A stretch of 5,212 bases of DNA from IMG/VR virus record IMGVR_UViG_2609460332_000003. One strand, 5' to 3'. Below, piece by piece: positions 1-5,212 of this stretch (position 1 is its first letter; the number at the start of each line of letters is the position of its first letter). Origin of the DNA: a virus (Duplodnaviria > Heunggongvirae > Uroviricota > Caudoviricetes). The position numbers and the translations under genes are program-made. The notes beneath the pieces are model-generated. The model saw nothing but the letters and a program-made list of their open reading frames with translations. It was not told the DNA's origin and searched no databases.

Positions 1-264
1 CTTATTTCGGGGAGATCTGTTTACAGTATCGGATCTTCGGTCCGTGGTGATGACGTTGCCATTAGTCCAGCGCTGAAGTGTCCGAATAGAAATACCGATA
101 CACCTACAAGCCTGACTTTTCCGGGCGCCGTTGATAACGGCCTCGTGGATAAGAGAAATAATTTTACGCCGCTCCAGGAGAGGGGTCAGTCTTCCTCGCT
201 GTTGTCCCAGAGGGCATTGAACTTTTCCCTTAATATAAGCAGGGCCGCTGCTTCCGCCAGAGCT
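1..264 (-). CDS. IS3-family transposase OrfB, N-terminal fragment (-1 frame relative to orfA; partial, runs off window start)
   Basis: The minus-strand frame -1 relative to orfA is open from the TAA at 267-265 to position 1 (88 codons with no stop) and overlaps the last ~26 codons of orfA. Its translation (...RRKIISLIHEAVINGARKSQACRCIGISIRTLQRWTNGNVITTDRRSD...) has the HTH-like motif seen at the start of IS3-family OrfB proteins. A candidate A-AAG slip site sits at minus-strand GGGAAAAG (plus coordinates 229-222). Confidence 0.5.
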
Positions 265-698
265 TTATCTTTGCGCTTAAGCTCTTTCTCCAGTTCTCGT
301 AACTTATTTTTTGCGTCACGCAATGCCCTGTCTGTTCGGATATTTTCCGTCAATTTCTTTTCATGCGCCTGAATTGAGATAGCCCGCCATTCTTTAACCT
401 GTTCAACAAACAATCCCATGCGTCGGCAATAATCAGCTAGTTCCATTTCTGACAGCGTAGCCGTCTCAAGAACAACTGAGAATCGACGCTCCGGTGTCCA
501 GTCTTCAACATCAACGGAGGTAATCTTTTCATTTTCAGGTAAAAGTCCTTGCTCCACTAACTCACATCTCCATTTTGATACAACTGAGGCACTGATCTTC
601 AGCTTACGGGCTATCTGACGATGTGACCAGCAGTATGGTGGTAAAAGCCATATCAGTCCTTTCTCTTTGAGTTCACTTGGTATTGGTTGTCCTGGCAT
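186..698 (-). CDS. IS3-family transposase OrfA (N-terminal HTH, C-terminal leucine-zipper-like coiled coil)
   Basis: ORF track gives 186..728 (180 aa) from a TTG. The in-frame ATG at 698-696 (MPGQPIPSELKEKG...) is preceded by a strong Shine-Dalgarno (minus strand AAGGAGATAACA-ATG), so I place the start at 698 (170 aa). The protein has HTH-like segments (IARKLKISASVVSKW; LSEMELADYCRRMGLFVEQVKEW) and a C-terminal heptad-repeat region (LRDAKNKLRELEKELKRKDKALAEAAALLILREKF), typical of IS3/IS150-group OrfA. The exact IS name is not recognised. Confidence 0.75.
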   Translation of the reverse strand: MPGQPIPSELKEKGLIWLLPPYCWSHRQIARKLKISASVVSKWRCELVEQGLLPENEKITSVDVEDWTPERRFSVVLETATLSEMELADYCRRMGLFVEQVKEWRAISIQAHEKKLTENIRTDRALRDAKNKLRELEKELKRKDKALAEAAALLILREKFNALWDNSEED

Positions 699-772
699 TG
701 TTATCTCCTTAAAAAATTGAGGCGACAACTATGCTGACACAGGGGGTTACTCACCGATCTCCTTCACGGTAA

Positions 773-1003
773 TACGCAACTTTCTCCGGGGATTATCTCC
801 GCGTAACTGACAACAAGGGGAAAACGCACGATGTGCTGACCGGAAGTGATGACGGTCGCCACAGCAACACGTCTCTGGCGTGGGGGGCTGGCGTGCAGTT
901 TAACCCGACCGAATCCGTGACCATTGACCTTGCTTATGAAGGTTCCGGTAGTGGCGACTGGCGAACGGATGCATTTATTGTTGGTATCGGATACCGTTTC
1001 TGA
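773..1003 (+). pseudogene. lom: 5'-truncated lom-like gene (Ail/Lom/OmpX-family outer membrane protein), C-terminal ~76 codons only
   Basis: The frame ending at TGA 1001-1003 translates to YATFSGDYLRVTDNKGKTHDVLTGSDDGRHSNTSLAWGAGVQFNPTESVTIDLAYEGSGSGDWRTDAFIVGIGYRF*. The ...AYEGSGSGDWRTD.FIVG.GY.F terminus is the characteristic last beta-strand region of lambda Lom/Ail-family proteins. There is no N-terminal signal peptide or first ~130 codons; the frame is closed by TAA at 770-772 right next to the IS. Gene order lom then stf then tfa matches lambda. Confidence 0.8.
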
Positions 1004-1107
1004 CAACAGACGCCGATTTATCTTCTGTAAATATTGTTATGATACGCAGGTTCATCCACCTTATGGGGTGAACTGCGTTTGAGGAAACGTAAAGTTACAC
1101 TGTCCTG

Positions 1108-1141
1108 AAGCCCGTGGCGTCACTGCTGCGGGCTTTTTTTA
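1108..1141 (+). terminator. Putative rho-independent terminator downstream of lom
   Basis: AAGCCCG (1108-1114) pairs with CGGGCTT (1129-1135) as a 7-bp GC-rich stem, with a 14-nt loop, followed by a T-run (1134-1141). It lies 13 nt upstream of the stf ATG. Confidence 0.5.
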
Positions 1142-1154
1142 TTGGTGGAAAAGT

Positions 1155-2792
1155 ATGACAGTAAAAATTTCTGGCGTGCTTAAAGATGGCACAGGAAAAC
1201 CAGTACAGAACTGCACCATTGTGCTGAAGGCCAGACGAACCAGCAGCACGGTGGTGGTGAACACGGTGGCCTCTGAAAATCCGGATGAAGCCGGACGTTA
1301 CAGCATGGATGTTGAGCATGGTCAGTACAGCGTCACCCTGCTGGTTGAAGGTTTTCCGCCTTCACATGCCGGGACCATTACCGTCTATGAAGGTTCCAGA
1401 CCAGGTACGCTGAATGATTTTCTCGGTGCCATGACGGAGGATGATGTACGACCGGAGGCACTGCGCCGCTTTGAGCAGATGGTAGAAGAGGTGTCACGTA
1501 ACGCCTCCGCGGTTGCACAGAATACGGCAGCCGCGAAAAAATCAGCCAGCGATGCCAGTGCATCAGCCAGCGAGGCGGCAACTCATGCAACCGATGCTGC
1601 AGCCTCATCACGTGCCGCCAGCACGTCAGCCGGACAGGCCGCGTCGTCGGCTCAGTCAGCGTCTTCCAGCGCAGGAACGGCATCGACAAAGGCCCGTGAA
1701 GCAGCAAAAAGTGCTGCTGCTGCAGAGTCATCAAAAAGCGCGGCAGCTACCAGCGCCAGTGCCGCGAAAACGTCAGAAACGAATGCCGCAGCATCACAAA
1801 AATCGGCAGCCACTTCTGCATCCACAGCGACCACGAAGGCGTCAGAAGCTGCCACCTCGGCACGGGGTGCGGCGGCCTCAAAAGAGGCAGCGAAATCTTC
1901 AGAAACGAATGCATCATCAAGTGCCAGTAGTGCAGCTTCCTCGGCAACGGCGGCAGGAAATTCCGCGAAGGCGGCAAAAACGTCCGAGACGAACGCTAAG
2001 TCTTCTGAAACAGCAGCGGGACAGAGCGCCTCAGCTGCGGCAGGTTCAAAAACAGCGGCTGCATTATCTGCCAGTGCCGCGTCAACAAGTGCCGGGCAGG
2101 CCTCAGCCAGTGCCACCGCCGCCGGAAAATCGGCAGAAAGCGCCGCATCATCCGCTTCAACAGCCACAACGAAGGCTGGCAAAGCCACTGAGCAAGCCAC
2201 TGCAGCAGCGAGGTCTGCTTCTGCAGCAAAAACCTCTGAAACAAATGCAAAGACTTCAGCAGACAATGCTGCTTCCTCTAAGGCGGCAGCCGCATCGTCA
2301 GCCAGTTCAGCGGCGTCATCGGCATCATCTGCGTCTGCTTCAAAAGATGAGGCGACCAGACAGGCGTCAGCAGCAAAGGGCAGCGCCACGACGGCATCCA
2401 CGAAGGCGACAGAGGCAGCTGGCAGTGCGACGGCGGCAGCTCAGAGCAAAAGTACGGCGGAATCCGCGGCAACGCGCGCCGAGACAGCGGCAAAACGGGC
2501 AGAGGATATTGCATCCGCCGTGGCGCTTGAGGATGCGAGCACGACGAAAAAGGGGATAGTACAGCTCAGCAGTGCGACCAACAGCACTTCCGAGTCACTG
2601 GCGGCAACGCCAAAAGCGGTTAAGGCGGTAATGGGTGAAACGAACAAGAAAGCGCCCTTAAATAGTCCTGCACTGACCGGAACGCCAACAACACCAACTG
2701 CGCGACAGGGAACGAATAATACCCAAATCGCAAGCACGGCTTATGTTATGGCTGCGATCGCTGCCTCGTGGACTCGTCGCCTGACGCACTGA
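1155..2792 (+). CDS. stf: Side tail fibre protein Stf, N-terminal portion (545 codons; reading frame terminated prematurely by an apparent 1-nt deletion)
   Basis: ATG at 1155 preceded by GGTGG (1144-1148). N-terminus MTVKISGVLKDGTGKPVQNCTIVLKA... followed by a long Ala/Ser/Thr-rich repeat region with recurring K(T/S)SETNA motifs, as in lambdoid prophage side tail fibres. The frame ends ...TAYVMAAIAASWTRRLTH*, whereas the conserved tail-fibre motif ...AAIAALVDSSPDALNTLNELAAALGNDP... continues in the next frame. Confidence 0.85.
   Translation: MTVKISGVLKDGTGKPVQNCTIVLKARRTSSTVVVNTVASENPDEAGRYSMDVEHGQYSVTLLVEGFPPSHAGTITVYEGSRPGTLNDFLGAMTEDDVRPEALRRFEQMVEEVSRNASAVAQNTAAAKKSASDASASASEAATHATDAAASSRAASTSAGQAASSAQSASSSAGTASTKAREAAKSAAAAESSKSAAATSASAAKTSETNAAASQKSAATSASTATTKASEAATSARGAAASKEAAKSSETNASSSASSAASSATAAGNSAKAAKTSETNAKSSETAAGQSASAAAGSKTAAALSASAASTSAGQASASATAAGKSAESAASSASTATTKAGKATEQATAAARSASAAKTSETNAKTSADNAASSKAAAASSASSAASSASSASASKDEATRQASAAKGSATTASTKATEAAGSATAAAQSKSTAESAATRAETAAKRAEDIASAVALEDASTTKKGIVQLSSATNSTSESLAATPKAVKAVMGETNKKAPLNSPALTGTPTTPTARQGTNNTQIASTAYVMAAIAASWTRRLTH
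1497..2520 (+). repeat. Imperfect in-frame tandem repeats encoding an Ala/Ser/Thr-rich low-complexity region of Stf
   Basis: Recurrent near-identical DNA words: AAAACGTCAGAAACGAATGC (1767-1786), AAATCTTCAGAAACGAATGC (1893-1912), AAAACGTCCGAGACGAACGC (1977-1996), AAAACCTCTGAAACAAATGC (2228-2247). The GCN/TCN codon periodicity leaves alternative frames open on both strands. Confidence 0.75.
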
Positions 2793-4060
2793 ATACGCTG
2801 AACGAGCTGGCTGCGGCGTTGGGCAACGACCCGAATTTTGCGACCACCATGACTAGCGCGCTTGCGGGTAAGCAACCGAAAGATGCCACCCTGACGGCGC
2901 TGGCCGGGCTTGCTACTGCGGCAGACAGGTTTCCGTATTTTACGGGGAATGATGTTGCCAGTCTGGCAACCCTGACAAAAGTTGGGCGGGATATTCTTGC
3001 GAAATCGACCGTTGCCGCCGTTATCGAATACCTCGGTTTACAGGAAACGGTAAACAAGGCTGGTAACGCCGTTCAGCGTTCCGGCGATAAAATGACCGGA
3101 GAACTGAAAATTGGCACGGTGAATGCGCTGCGAATTTTCAATGATGCCTTCGGTCTTATTTTCCGTCGTTCAGAAGATTTTCTTCATTTCATTCCGACGG
3201 CTGAAGGACAAGGCGAAAACGGTGATATCGGCCCATTAAGGCCATTCGCTATAAATCTGAGAACAGGTGCTATATCTGTCAGCCACGGGGCCAAAATTGA
3301 TGGTGGGCTGGCGCTTGGTACAGATAACGCACTGGGCGGTAATTCCATTACTCTCGGAGATAACGACACTGGTATTAAACAGGGCGGCGACGGTGTCCTT
3401 TTATTCTATTCAAATGGACAACTGGCATTTGGGCTTCAACCCGCATCTGCTGATTTTTATAAGCGGGTTGCATATATTCATCAGGGAATAATTCCTGATG
3501 GAAGTGGCGCATTTGCAGACCAGTTGAATAATGCCACCGCGCCTTTTGTTCAGACGCAGTTTGCCTGGAATCCCACTCCTGGTGGTCTTTACGTGCCGAT
3601 AGTTAAGGGCTTGTCCATTCGCAATGGACAGGGCTATCCCGGCGCGGTCAGCTTTGGGTATTTACTGACAGAACAGTATGGATTTCCGGTTCCATGTATT
3701 CATATGCGTGGCGATGGCGGTAATGATGCTTTATGGCAGTTTAACCCGAACGATAAATCCTTTATTTCACCGGGTGCTCTTATTGCGGGTGGCGTCCGTT
3801 ATAACACCGATGGAAATATATTTGGTGGGTGCTGGGGGTCAAACTTAAATGATTACCTGAATAGTTCTTTTATCAGAAATGTGCGTCTGGGAGGCAGACG
3901 TTCTGACACATTATATCGCGGAGGACTTTGCGAACCAGGTAATGGTCATGTGACAACAGGATTGCAAATTATTGGTGAGGTTGATGGAGATGACTGGATG
4001 GTGTCACGACCACTACAAAAATACATTTCTGGTAACTGGTATAACGTTGAACAGGCATAG
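2768..4060 (+). CDS. stf: Side tail fibre protein Stf, C-terminal portion: conserved collar region (2768-3046) plus variable receptor-binding domain (3047-4060); in a different frame from the N-terminal portion
   Basis: Translation from the ORF-track start (GTG 2768) reads (M)DSSPDALNTLNELAAALGNDPNFATTMTSALAGKQPKDATLTALAGL...FPYF...VGRDILAKSTVAAVIEYLGLQE..., the conserved collar shared by P2 H, Mu S, lambda Stf and T4 gp37-type fibres. It ends ...KYISGNWYNVEQA* (TAG 4058-4060). The true protein is most likely continuous with 1155-2792. Confidence 0.85.
   Translation: MDSSPDALNTLNELAAALGNDPNFATTMTSALAGKQPKDATLTALAGLATAADRFPYFTGNDVASLATLTKVGRDILAKSTVAAVIEYLGLQETVNKAGNAVQRSGDKMTGELKIGTVNALRIFNDAFGLIFRRSEDFLHFIPTAEGQGENGDIGPLRPFAINLRTGAISVSHGAKIDGGLALGTDNALGGNSITLGDNDTGIKQGGDGVLLFYSNGQLAFGLQPASADFYKRVAYIHQGIIPDGSGAFADQLNNATAPFVQTQFAWNPTPGGLYVPIVKGLSIRNGQGYPGAVSFGYLLTEQYGFPVPCIHMRGDGGNDALWQFNPNDKSFISPGALIAGGVRYNTDGNIFGGCWGSNLNDYLNSSFIRNVRLGGRRSDTLYRGGLCEPGNGHVTTGLQIIGEVDGDDWMVSRPLQKYISGNWYNVEQA
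3021..3046. other. Gin/Pin/Cin/Hin-family 26-bp DNA-inversion crossover site (gix/pix-like), left boundary of an invertible segment
   Basis: TTATCGAATACCTCGGTTTACAGGAA. From memory, Mu gixR is TTATCCAAAACCTCGGTTTACAGGAA, giving 24/26 identity. It has the 12-2-12 layout with a central TC, and lies in frame inside stf (encoding VIEYLGLQE) at the conserved/variable junction. Confidence 0.7.
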
Positions 4061-4075
4061 CCATCAGGAGAATAT

Positions 4076-4603
4076 ATGCAACATCTGAAAAATATTACCG
4101 CCGGAAACCCCAAAACCATTGAGCAGTATCAGCTTACGAAAAAAGCTGGCGTTATCTGGCTATATACAGAAGACGGTAAAAACTGGTATGACGAATTAAA
4201 AAACTTTCAGGATGATACTTTAAAAATAGCTTATGACCAGAAGGGGATTATTCGTTGTATTGAGAAAGACGTATCAACACTTAACCCTGACGGGTTAAGT
4301 GTTGTTGAGTTACCGAATATAACAGCCAACCGTCGCGCCGATATCTCGGGAAACTGGAAGTTTCTGGATGGTAAAGTAGTAAAGCGGGAATATACAAAAC
4401 AGGAACTGCAACAGCAGGCAGAGTTACAAAAAGCCGCTTTGCTTTCCGAAGCGGAGTCTGTGATTCAACCGCTGGAACGTGCTGTCAGACTGAATATGGC
4501 AACTGATGAGGAACGCACACGACTGGAATCATGGGAACGCTACAGCGTTATGGTCAGCCGTGTGGATACTGCAAAGCCTGAATGGCCACAGAAACCAGAA
4601 TAA
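4076..4603 (+). CDS. tfa: Tail fibre assembly protein (Tfa; Mu U / lambda Tfa family)
   Basis: ATG 4076 preceded by AGGAG (4066-4070) with 5-nt spacing, 15 nt after the stf stop. The 175-aa product [23 protein letters not shown]...ITANRRAD...[23 protein letters not shown] follows the stf-then-tfa arrangement and has the Tfa-family C-terminal pattern (W.RY...V...DT......P..PE). Confidence 0.9.
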
Positions 4604-4612
4604 CAACAAATT

Positions 4613-4630
4613 AAGGCCCGTACGGGCCTT
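4613..4630. terminator. Perfect 18-bp palindrome (AAGGCCCGTACGGGCCTT) between convergent tfa and tfa'; putative bidirectional rho-independent terminator
   Basis: 7-bp GC-rich stem with GTAC loop. It is followed by TTTTCTT on the plus strand and by TTAATTTGTTG on the minus strand, and lies in the 30-bp gap between the two convergent stop codons. Confidence 0.55.
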
Positions 4631-4633
4631 TTC

Positions 4634-5167
4634 TTATTCTGGTGGTTCCGGGAATGTTACAGGAAGAACCGAGGTATCAGTTGTCTCAACCTGTTGCACG
4701 TATCGCATCCAGTTCATCAGTTGCTGTCTGTCTGAATCAGTGATAATCCCCAAAGTAAGCTGTGTTTGCCAGAACTGCGTTTTTTCTCTGGCCTGCTGTA
4801 ATAATATTTTTTTCTGGTTTTCCGTCTGTAGGCGCAACTCTTCTTCGGTATATACACGTTTAATGACTGCGCCATCTTTAAACATCCATTTACCTGAGTC
4901 GTCAGCACGCCGGTTGGCGGTAATATCAGGAATCTCAACGACGCTATAACCTTCAGGGTTAAGTGTGGAGGCATCTTTGGTTATGGCAACAATAATATTA
5001 TTTTCATCGTAAACAATCTTTATGGTGTCTGGCTGAAAGTTTTTCACTTCCTCATACCAGTTTTTTCCGTCCTCAGAGTAAAGCCAGATAACTCCGTGTT
5101 TCTTTGTTAACTCATACTGTTCCAGTGTTTTAGCATTACCCGCTTTTATGTTCTTTAAGTGCATCAT
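4634..5167 (-). CDS. Alternate tail fibre assembly protein (Tfa'; Mu U'-like), inverted relative to tfa
   Basis: 177-aa [41 protein letters not shown]...ITANRRAD...[25 protein letters not shown]. By eye it is about 70% identical to Tfa over the first ~110 residues and diverged after that. Its start is 1 nt downstream of the stf' stop, suggesting translational coupling. Confidence 0.9.
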
Positions 5168-5168
5168 A

Positions 5169-5212
5169 TTAAACGCTCGCTACATTATACCAGGTGCCAT
5201 TTATATACTTTG
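5169..5212 (-). CDS. 3' end (last 13 codons plus stop) of an alternate side-tail-fibre variable domain (stf'), partial at window edge
   Basis: Minus strand 5210..5169 translates to [13 protein letters not shown], which parallels the Stf C-terminus KYISGNWYNVEQA*. The stop TAA (5171-5169) is immediately followed by the tfa' ATG (5167). Confidence 0.6.

What the first reader, a model, noticed from the sequence alone, without database searches (positions are those of the whole stretch)
2757..2770. Apparent 1-nt deletion splitting the side tail fibre gene in its conserved collar motif
The frame from 1155 reads ...TAYVMAAIAASWTRRLTH* and stops at 2790-2792. The next frame reads (L)VDSSPDALNTLNELAAALGNDPNF..., the conserved tail-fibre motif. 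One extra base near 2763-2768 (GCTGCCTCGTGG to GCTGCCCTCGTGG) would give AAIAALVDSSPDAL and a single ~970-aa Stf. There is no slippery heptamer, so this is a sequencing error or a real inactivating mutation, not programmed frameshifting. It lies upstream of the crossover site, so it would disable the fibre in both orientations. This recalls the frameshifted stf of laboratory lambda. The intact downstream ORFs suggest the lesion is recent or artefactual.
Basis: partly seen in the sequence, partly recalled or inferred. Interest (0 to 1): 0.5.

Follow-up and report, generated by a model that had tools for sequence, protein, structure and literature searches.

The report
One-base deletion breaking prophage tail-fibre gene
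One C is missing from a CCC run in the side tail fibre gene of a common E. coli prophage; it splits a 968-residue protein into two reading frames, is seen almost nowhere else, and is either a recent knockout mutation or an assembly error, so it is ordinary.

Summary
The window is the whole draft contig CBWJ010000029.1. Positions 746-5211 are identical to E. coli ST131 EC958 apart from one gap: GCTGCCTCGTGG here, GCTGCCCTCGTGG in EC958 (C3 to C2 at 2764-2765). The EC958 gene is one open 968-aa stf ORF. Here it reads as 545 aa (1155-2792) plus a 430-aa ORF (2768-4060).

All 398 copies of this segment in 390 complete E. coli genomes have CCC, as do 23 viral and 17 metagenome contigs. The only other CC carrier has 12 indels in its surrounding 6 kb.

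Programmed frameshifting has no support: there is no slippery heptamer, no unusual downstream RNA fold, and homologues (P2 gpH, P1/P7 S, lambda Stf) read straight through.

The lesion lies about 250 nt upstream of the crossover site (3015-3041) of an invertible tip segment, which occurs in both orientations in other genomes. If real, it removes the fibre in both orientations.

Lambda PaPa's stf deletion is a true analogue but lies about 110 nt upstream. "Collar motif" is a misnomer: the lambda collar is Stf residues 1-94.

Real mutation and consensus error cannot be separated without reads; I put them at roughly 45:50. Low interest.

The parts
1..745 (-). Part of an IS3-family insertion sequence (orfA-like ORF 186-728); context, not part of the lesion
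   Evidence: Matches to elements annotated as IS3-family transposase, 98-99% identity. Weak HTH transposase Pfam hits.
746..778 (.). 33 nt identical to the outer end of the ISEc12 (IS21-family) copy that interrupts lom in EC958, abutting the same lom base
   Evidence: The junction is absent from 5426 complete genomes and from IMG/VR.
776..1003 (+). 3' remnant of the lom (Ail/Lom) gene
   Evidence: EC958 annotation transferred through the identical alignment. Ail_Lom Pfam family on the 833-1003 product.
1155..2792 (+). stf 5' reading frame: 537 native residues plus 8 frameshifted residues (SWTRRLTH), then the stop
   Evidence: PF08400 prophage tail fibre N-terminal domain at residues 1-134, E = 2e-70. 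Residues 1-94 match PDB 9e7m tail fibre protein.
2764..2765 (+). The lesion: CC where every homologue has CCC (codons Ala537-Leu538 of the intact protein)
2768..4060 (+). stf 3' reading frame (430 aa counted from GTG; frame open from 2720): conserved shaft module plus the variable tip in the current orientation
   Evidence: PHROG tail-fibre families. There is no Shine-Dalgarno-like sequence upstream of GTG 2768 (my reading of the sequence printed).
3015..3041 (.). Left crossover site of the invertible tip segment (inverted repeat of a site outside the window, at EC958 locus L001 6709-6735)
   Evidence: Inverted repeat, 32 nt at 84%. The segment L001 3617-6735 is inverted relative to its flanks in 7 other assemblies. 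Identity to Mu-like Yersinia phages begins at 3014.
4076..4603 (+). tfa, tail fibre assembly protein for the current tip
   Evidence: PF02413 Caudo_TAP, E = 9e-35.
4634..5167 (-). Alternative tfa', used after inversion
   Evidence: PF02413, E = 6e-32. EC958 annotation.
5169..5212 (-). 3' end of the alternative variable tip Sv', cut off by the contig end
   Evidence: EC958 ORF L001 5771-6556 (-), mapped through the alignment.

Best explanation
The window is a draft-assembly contig. It carries the distal tail-fibre region of a lambdoid prophage that is widespread in E. coli and is identical to the copy next to trpA in ST131 strain EC958. The region runs: lom (interrupted by an IS), stf, tfa, then inverted tfa' and an alternative stf tip.

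One C of a CCC run in the constant part of stf is missing from this contig. Translation starting at 1155 therefore leaves the native frame after Ala537, reads 8 wrong residues and stops at 2790-2792. The remaining 430 codons sit in the -1 frame. They encode the conserved shaft module and the receptor-binding tip, have no ribosome-binding site of their own, and would not be made as part of the fibre.

The deletion lies about 250 nt upstream of the DNA-inversion crossover site. Neither of the two alternative tips could therefore be joined to the tail-binding N-terminal domain. If the base is truly absent from the cell's DNA, this is a null side-tail-fibre allele of the same kind as laboratory lambda's orf-401/orf-314.

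The lesion is not programmed. It is private to this assembly, apart from one error-laden assembly. My split is about 50% consensus or assembly error and about 45% genuine very recent mutation. The confidence value below covers the union: a non-programmed one-base deletion of either origin.

Shown: the deletion, the intact homologues, the missing frameshift signals, and the position relative to the inversion site. Inferred: the loss of function and the origin.
For: - Window 746-5211 is identical to EC958 except for one gap at the CCC run.
- EC958 has an open 968-aa ORF. Other gene callers report a 968-aa product with PF08400 for it.
- None of 398 places in 390 complete E. coli genomes has the CC allele.
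- CC allele: 0 viral and 0 metagenome contigs. CCC allele: 23 viral and 17 metagenome contigs. The frame is open across the junction in all 40.
- The exact 430-aa product is on record on only 2 contigs. The neighbouring Tfa is listed in 11,259 blocks of the same collection.
- P2 gpH, P1/P7 S and lambda-type Stf align as one piece across the junction; 90 phage records cover at least 80% of a 160-aa query centred on it.
- There is no slippery heptamer and no run of 4 or more in 2720-2792. Downstream RNA fold z = 0.19.
- The crossover site and both orientations are documented.
- Lambda precedent: a frameshift in stf abolishes side fibres (PMC12617516). Stf-minus frameshifts arise readily under selection, 15 of 19 mutated isolates (PMC2762979).
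Against: Nothing found contradicts a one-base deletion. What is unresolved is its origin.

Points favouring a real mutation:
- The rest of the contig has no other indel, although it contains 67 homopolymers of 4-7 nt that are more error-prone than a 3-run.
- A second assembly, GCA_016389245.2, shows the same CC.

Points favouring an error:
- That second assembly has 12 indels in the surrounding 6.1 kb.
- Another low-quality assembly has short-homopolymer deletions in the same gene segment.
- The segment is multi-copy in many genomes.
- The contig's left junction is also unique and could be a repeat-induced misjoin.

Loss of function is inferred, not measured.
Confidence: 0.93

Rival explanations
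1. Sub-case A of the best explanation: the missing C is a sequencing, consensus or assembly error, and the strain really carries the intact 968-aa stf.
For: - The allele is private. It is absent from 390 complete genomes, 40 viral or metagenome contigs, and all but one of the assemblies that carry the neighbouring tfa.
- The only other carrier is error-laden in exactly this repeat-rich stretch.
- The site is a homopolymer.
- This module is repeated among prophages within one genome, 2-5 places per record, where consensus quality is usually poorer (general knowledge).
- The same short contig also has a left junction seen nowhere else, made across a 33-nt repeat.
Against: - There is no other indel in 4466 nt, even though longer homopolymers (G6, T7) are present.
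- The run is only 3 nt long.
- The sequencing technology and coverage are unknown. No paper or metadata was found.
Confidence: 0.5
2. Sub-case B of the best explanation: a genuine, very recent loss-of-function mutation in a decaying prophage. It would be pseudogenisation of stf, possibly favoured because side fibres are dispensable or costly.
For: - The same CC appears in an independent assembly.
- The contig is otherwise clean.
- The prophage is already decaying in EC958: lom is split by an IS and the invertase is reduced to a 60-aa stub.
- stf frameshifts are known to arise and to be selected in lambda.
Against: - No well-assembled genome or short-read assembly shares the allele, although this locus has been sampled thousands of times. 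It is therefore not a clade marker.
- With more than 11,000 blocks carrying the locus, one coincident error in a low-quality assembly is not unlikely. My estimate is about 0.6% per such assembly.
Confidence: 0.43
3. Programmed -1 ribosomal frameshifting or transcriptional slippage restores full-length Stf, so the two-frame layout is functional.
For: The downstream frame is -1 relative to the upstream one, and the two overlap by 73 nt. That geometry alone is compatible with this reading.
Against: - There is no X XXY YYZ heptamer in phase and no run of 4 or more in the overlap.
- There is no unusual downstream structure, z = 0.19.
- The two-frame layout is not conserved. Every homologue is in a single frame.
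Confidence: 0.02
4. A functional split fibre: the 430-aa C-terminal ORF is translated on its own, by reinitiation at GTG 2768, and associates with the 545-aa N-terminal piece.
For: GTG 2768 lies 22 nt upstream of the upstream ORF's stop codon, so some reinitiation is conceivable (inference).
Against: - There is no Shine-Dalgarno-like sequence upstream of GTG 2768 (sequence printed).
- No homologue is split at this point.
- In lambda the analogous split abolishes side fibres.
Confidence: 0.02

Closest known systems
Laboratory lambda (PaPa) stf frameshift: orf-401 / orf-314 versus the intact 774-aa Stf of Ur-lambda
   Same: A one-base deletion in the constant part of a lambdoid stf gene splits it into an N-terminal ORF with a short out-of-frame tail and a C-terminal ORF in the next frame. 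Side fibres are lost (PMC12617516; lambda annotation; alignment).
   Different: The site differs. The lambda gap lies about 110 nt upstream, in the codons homologous to KAPLNSP (near window 2652). The lambda allele is experimentally established as real; this one is not. Lambda has no invertible tip.
The intact allele of the same prophage gene in E. coli ST131 EC958 (NZ_HG941718.1 1482917-1485823) and about 390 other complete genomes
   Same: 100% identical over window 746-5211 apart from the one base. The flanking genes are the same.
   Different: CCC rather than CC. EC958 has the ISEc12 core where the window has an IS3-family core to the left of position 746.
Invertible tail-fibre segments of phage Mu (G segment, Gin), P1/P7 (C segment, Cin) and e14 (P segment, Pin)
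   Same: - A constant stf/S part is followed by a crossover site inside the gene.
- There are two opposed sets of variable tip plus assembly gene.
- Both orientations are observed.
- P1/P7 Sc aligns across the lesion region, and the cix site is annotated at the corresponding place.
- The segment is 97.3% identical to that of Mu-like Yersinia phages.
   Different: Here the constant part has a lambdoid Stf N-terminus (PF08400). The adjacent invertase gene is only a 60-aa stub in EC958 and lies outside the window. The finding itself is a lesion upstream of this system, not part of its mechanism.
Phage P2 tail fibre gpH
   Same: The 160 residues around the lesion are 95.6% identical to gpH, in a single continuous alignment.
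   Different: The N-terminal attachment domain differs, as does the tail type (myovirus).

Membership tests
Lambdoid side tail fibre gene (stf) | N-terminal prophage tail-fibre domain that forms the collar on the tail | tested here: met
   PF08400 at residues 1-134, E = 2e-70. Residues 1-94 match PDB 9e7m, E = 2.9e-47.
Lambdoid side tail fibre gene (stf) | Position downstream of J and lom, followed by a tail fibre assembly gene | tested here: met
   EC958 context is gpJ, lom, stf, tfa. The lom remnant and tfa are in the window.
Lambdoid side tail fibre gene (stf) | One continuous reading frame from the N-terminal domain to the receptor-binding tip | tested here: not met
   In the window it is split into 545 + 430 aa. 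It is continuous at 968 aa in EC958 and in all other copies.
Programmed -1 ribosomal frameshift site | Slippery heptamer X XXY YYZ in phase within the overlap of the two frames | tested here: not met
   None in 2720-2792.
Programmed -1 ribosomal frameshift site | Downstream stimulatory RNA structure | tested here: not met
   The fold of 2766-2865 is no better than shuffles, z = 0.19. Pseudoknots were not modelled.
Programmed -1 ribosomal frameshift site | The two-frame arrangement is conserved in homologues | tested here: not met
   0 of 398 places in complete genomes and 0 of 40 viral or metagenome contigs. Phage homologues are in a single frame.
Gin/Cin/Pin-type invertible tail-fibre segment | Inverted crossover sites, one of them inside the fibre gene | tested here: met
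   L001 3617-3648 against 6704-6735, 84% over 32 nt. The left site is window 3015-3046. Its resemblance to Mu gix is from memory only.
Gin/Cin/Pin-type invertible tail-fibre segment | Both orientations occur | tested here: met
   The segment is inverted relative to its flanks in L057, L060 and L062-L066, and direct in L058 and EC958.
Gin/Cin/Pin-type invertible tail-fibre segment | Adjacent functional serine invertase | tested here: not met
   Outside the window. In EC958 only a 180-nt, 60-aa Resolvase-family stub remains. Whether inversion is catalysed in trans was not tested.
Lambda PaPa-type stf null allele | A single-base deletion splits stf into two ORFs | tested here: met
Lambda PaPa-type stf null allele | Same mutational site as lambda PaPa | tested here: not met
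   The lambda gap is about 110 nt upstream in the alignment.
Sequencing or assembly indel artefact | Reads disagree with the consensus at the site | not testable with these tools
   No reads are available, and no metadata was found for GCA_000529615.1.
Sequencing or assembly indel artefact | The allele is unique to the assembly and sits in a homopolymer or repeat context | tested here: inconclusive
   It is a C3 run and is private, except for one error-laden assembly. However, the contig has no other indel.

The most novel reading that the evidence does not exclude
The same C is lost in two different strains: this contig, and GCA_016389245.2, which lacks the IS3-family core at the left junction. 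That could reflect a recurrent or clade-level real deletion, meaning a small mutational hotspot or selection against expressing this prophage's side fibre in some ST131-like lineages.
Probability: 0.1. Interest if true: 0.2.

Novelty: already known. Interest (0 to 1): 0.07.

Why it matters
It matters little. If the deletion is real, it is one more example of stf inactivation in a decaying prophage, the lambda PaPa story repeated at a different base. It would mean that any particles from this prophage lack side fibres whichever way the invertible tip points.

If it is an artefact, the practical lesson concerns annotation. The contig should be read as carrying an intact 968-aa invertible-tip Stf. 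The split calls on record for it are by-products: a 90-aa fragment, a 430-aa ORF and an antisense 249-aa ORF.

It is also a reminder that tail-fibre modules shared among prophages are places where draft and long-read assemblies accumulate indels.

Tried and rejected
- **Programmed frameshifting.** Rejected: no heptamer, no structure, no conservation.
- **Exact-product look-ups as a proxy for reads.** The 545-aa product is not on record. The 90-aa frameshifted fragment is found only in the window's own contig. The 430-aa product is found in the window's contig and one other assembly.
- **The second carrier as proof of a real allele.** Rejected as decisive. It has 12 indels clustered in the same 6.1 kb, and the locus is present in more than 11,000 blocks, so a coincidence is plausible.
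- **Batch-specific systematic error.** Not supported. A sister assembly, GCA_016389995.2, has CCC and no indels here.
- **Metadata for the assemblies.** The paper search found nothing relevant; the single hit was a different accession containing the same letters.
- **GTDB representative genomes.** Neither allele is present, so this was uninformative.
- **Same site as lambda PaPa.** Rejected; the lambda site is about 110 nt upstream.
- **Tracing the strain through the IS3-family orfA product.** It is too common to discriminate, 66 blocks.
- **Exact boundaries of the IS3-family element and ISEc12.** I tried to work out how they come to share ends and did not resolve it.

Full report
**Provenance.** The window is the complete 5212-bp contig CBWJ010000029.1 of draft assembly GCA_000529615.1. 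The locus returned for it is identical to the window. A paper search found no description of the assembly.

**Checking the observation.** ORF listing and direct reading confirm two ORFs. The first is 545 aa (1155-2792) and ends ...TAYVMAAIAASWTRRLTH*. The second is 430 aa (2768-4060, GTG start) and begins (V)DSSPDALNTLNELAAALGNDPNF. The second frame is -1 relative to the first and is open from 2720, so both frames are open over 2720-2792.

A megablast of 2400-3200 against 5426 complete E. coli genomes gave hundreds of hits at 99.9% identity, each covering 802 record bases for 801 query bases. The alignment to ST131 strain EC958 shows window 746-5211 identical over 4466 nt, with no mismatch and exactly one gap. 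The window has GCTG-CCTCGTGG and EC958 has GCTGCCCTCGTGG. With it, EC958 has one open 968-aa ORF reading ...AAIAALVDSSPDAL....

**How unusual the CC allele is.**
- A 64-nt query centred on the site found 398 places in 390 complete genomes. All were at 98.5% identity, meaning all carry the extra C, and none was at 100%.
- An exact 34-nt pattern with CC found 0 contigs in IMG/VR, 0 in the metagenome collection and 0 in the GTDB representatives.
- The 35-nt pattern with CCC found 23 viral and 17 metagenome contigs. It found none in the GTDB representatives, so that collection is uninformative.
- In all 40 of those contigs the frame is open across the junction.
- At the protein level, a 160-aa query centred on the junction aligns as one piece in 90 phage records. 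These include P2 gpH (95.6% identity), P1/P7 S (constant part Sc) and lambda-type Stf. The motif is therefore normally contiguous with the upstream frame.

**Exact-product look-ups as a proxy for other assemblies.** The 545-aa product is not on record. The 90-aa fragment that the source's gene caller made from the frameshifted end occurs only in the window's own contig. The 430-aa product occurs on two contigs: the window, and a 5.1-Mb contig of GCA_016389245.2. That second assembly does have the same CC.

That second assembly differs from EC958 by 12 indel events, all within one 6.1-kb repeat-rich stretch (ISEc12, stf, tfa, Sv') and none in the 7 kb around it. This suggests uncorrected errors in repeats. 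A sister assembly of the same accession series has CCC and no indels here. Another low-quality assembly, STO_Bone4, has T4-to-T3 and A3-to-A2 deletions in the same 500 nt but CCC at the site.

The neighbouring Tfa protein is listed in 11,259 blocks of the same collection, so the locus has been sampled thousands of times. Given roughly 12 events per 6.1 kb, I estimate the chance that a given low-quality assembly hits this particular 3-nt run at about 0.6%. One coincidence among that many assemblies is not remarkable. The second carrier is therefore weak evidence for a real allele.

**Error or mutation.**

For a real mutation:
- The contig has no other indel relative to EC958, although 746-5211 holds 43 runs of 4 nt, 16 of 5, 6 of 6 and 2 of 7. 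Those would be hit first by homopolymer-type errors.
- The prophage is already decaying. In EC958, lom is split by an IS and the invertase is a 60-aa stub.
- stf frameshifts are known to arise and to be selected in lambda.

For an artefact:
- The allele is private.
- The conserved module is multi-copy within genomes, 2-5 places per record.
- The contig's left end is also unique. An IS3-family core (1-745) is joined to 33 nt (746-778) that are identical to the outer end of the ISEc12 copy splitting lom in EC958, at the same lom base. That junction is in none of 5426 complete genomes and in no IMG/VR contig. It could be a further IS insertion or a misjoin across a short repeat.

I cannot decide without reads. 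My split is about 50% error, 45% real.

**Not programmed.** There is no in-phase X XXY YYZ heptamer and no run of 4 or more in the overlap. The 100 nt downstream fold no better than shuffled sequence, z = 0.19. The two-frame layout is not conserved anywhere. GTG 2768 has no Shine-Dalgarno-like sequence upstream (sequence printed), so independent expression of the distal 430 aa is unlikely.

**What the gene is and what the lesion would do.** The intact protein has the following parts:
- The prophage tail-fibre N-terminal domain (PF08400, residues 1-134). Residues 1-94 match a solved tail fibre chain, 9e7m. In Ur-lambda, residues 1-94 of Stf form the dodecameric collar on the tail (PMC12617516).
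- An Ala/Ser-rich repetitive shaft.
- The module shared with P2 gpH, P1 S and lambda Stf.
- A variable tip, followed by tfa (PF02413).

The lesion falls at Ala537/Leu538, at the start of the shared shaft module.

An inverted repeat marks a crossover site at EC958 locus L001 3617-3648 against 6704-6735, which is window 3015-3046. In 7 of 10 other assemblies examined, the segment between these sites is inverted relative to its flanks. Inversion fuses the constant part to the alternative tip, giving a 940-941-aa Stf. The deletion lies about 250 nt upstream of the crossover. That consequence is inferred from the lambda precedent and has not been measured.

**Comparison with lambda PaPa.** Lambda's orf-401 ends ...MDETNRKAHWTVRH*. 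The alignment places lambda's one-base gap in AAAGC-CCACTGG, homologous to window position ~2652 (KAPLNSP). That is about 110 nt upstream of the present lesion. The kind of lesion and the region of the gene are the same, but the site is different.

**Verdict.** The finding is ordinary: a one-base deletion in a well-known gene, either a recent pseudogenising mutation or a consensus error.

Noticed in passing
window 3015-3041 to the contig end; EC958 locus L001 3617-6735: The tip of the fibre gene with its two tfa genes is a DNA-inversion segment. It is found in both orientations among otherwise near-identical assemblies, inverted in 7 of 10 examined. The adjacent invertase gene is nevertheless only a 60-aa stub in EC958, so inversion would need an invertase supplied in trans or must predate the truncation.
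   Followed up: partly
window 3014-5211; 2595-3075; 779-2626: Mosaic joints. The invertible segment is 97.3% identical to Mu-like Yersinia phages vB_YpM_3/23, with identity starting exactly at the crossover site. The 160 aa around the lesion are 95.6% identical to P2 gpH. The N-terminal part is about 90% identical to lambdoid phages.
   Followed up: partly
window 1-778: An IS3-family core (1-745) abuts 33 nt that are identical to the outer end of the ISEc12 copy interrupting lom in EC958, at the same lom base. The junction occurs in no complete E. coli genome and no IMG/VR contig. In other genomes the same IS3-family core is flanked by ISEc12-like ends on both sides, with a 5-bp duplication (L005). 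This is either a further IS insertion into the ISEc12 end or a repeat-induced misjoin, and the relation between the two elements is unresolved.
   Followed up: partly
EC958 locus L001 1756-4662 (corresponds to window 1155-4060): RefSeq/PGAP annotates the intact 968-aa EC958 ORF as an 'incomplete' pseudogene covering only its first 1497 nt, and leaves the rest unannotated. The ORF is open, and other gene callers report a 968-aa product.
   Followed up: yes
window 1652-2401 (-) and 1513-2559 (+): Long alternative-frame and antisense ORFs run through the Ala/Ser-rich repeats of stf. The 249-aa antisense ORF was called as a gene in the source record in place of the real 5' stf ORF. Lambda carries the annotated 'orf206b' in the same antisense position. 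These are probably compositional artefacts.
   Followed up: no
L002 (GCA_016389245.2) 2957-9035: There are 12 indels relative to EC958 within one 6.1-kb repeat-rich stretch and none in the flanking 7 kb. This pattern suggests long-read errors left unpolished where short reads map to more than one copy.
   Followed up: partly
window 5212 (right contig end): The contig ends 44 nt into the alternative tip gene, next to an imperfect inverted repeat (4018-4047 against 5182-5211, 73%) formed by the conserved C-terminal ends of the two tips. The break is not at the crossover site, so it probably reflects a repeat shared with another prophage rather than a mixed-orientation population.
   Followed up: no
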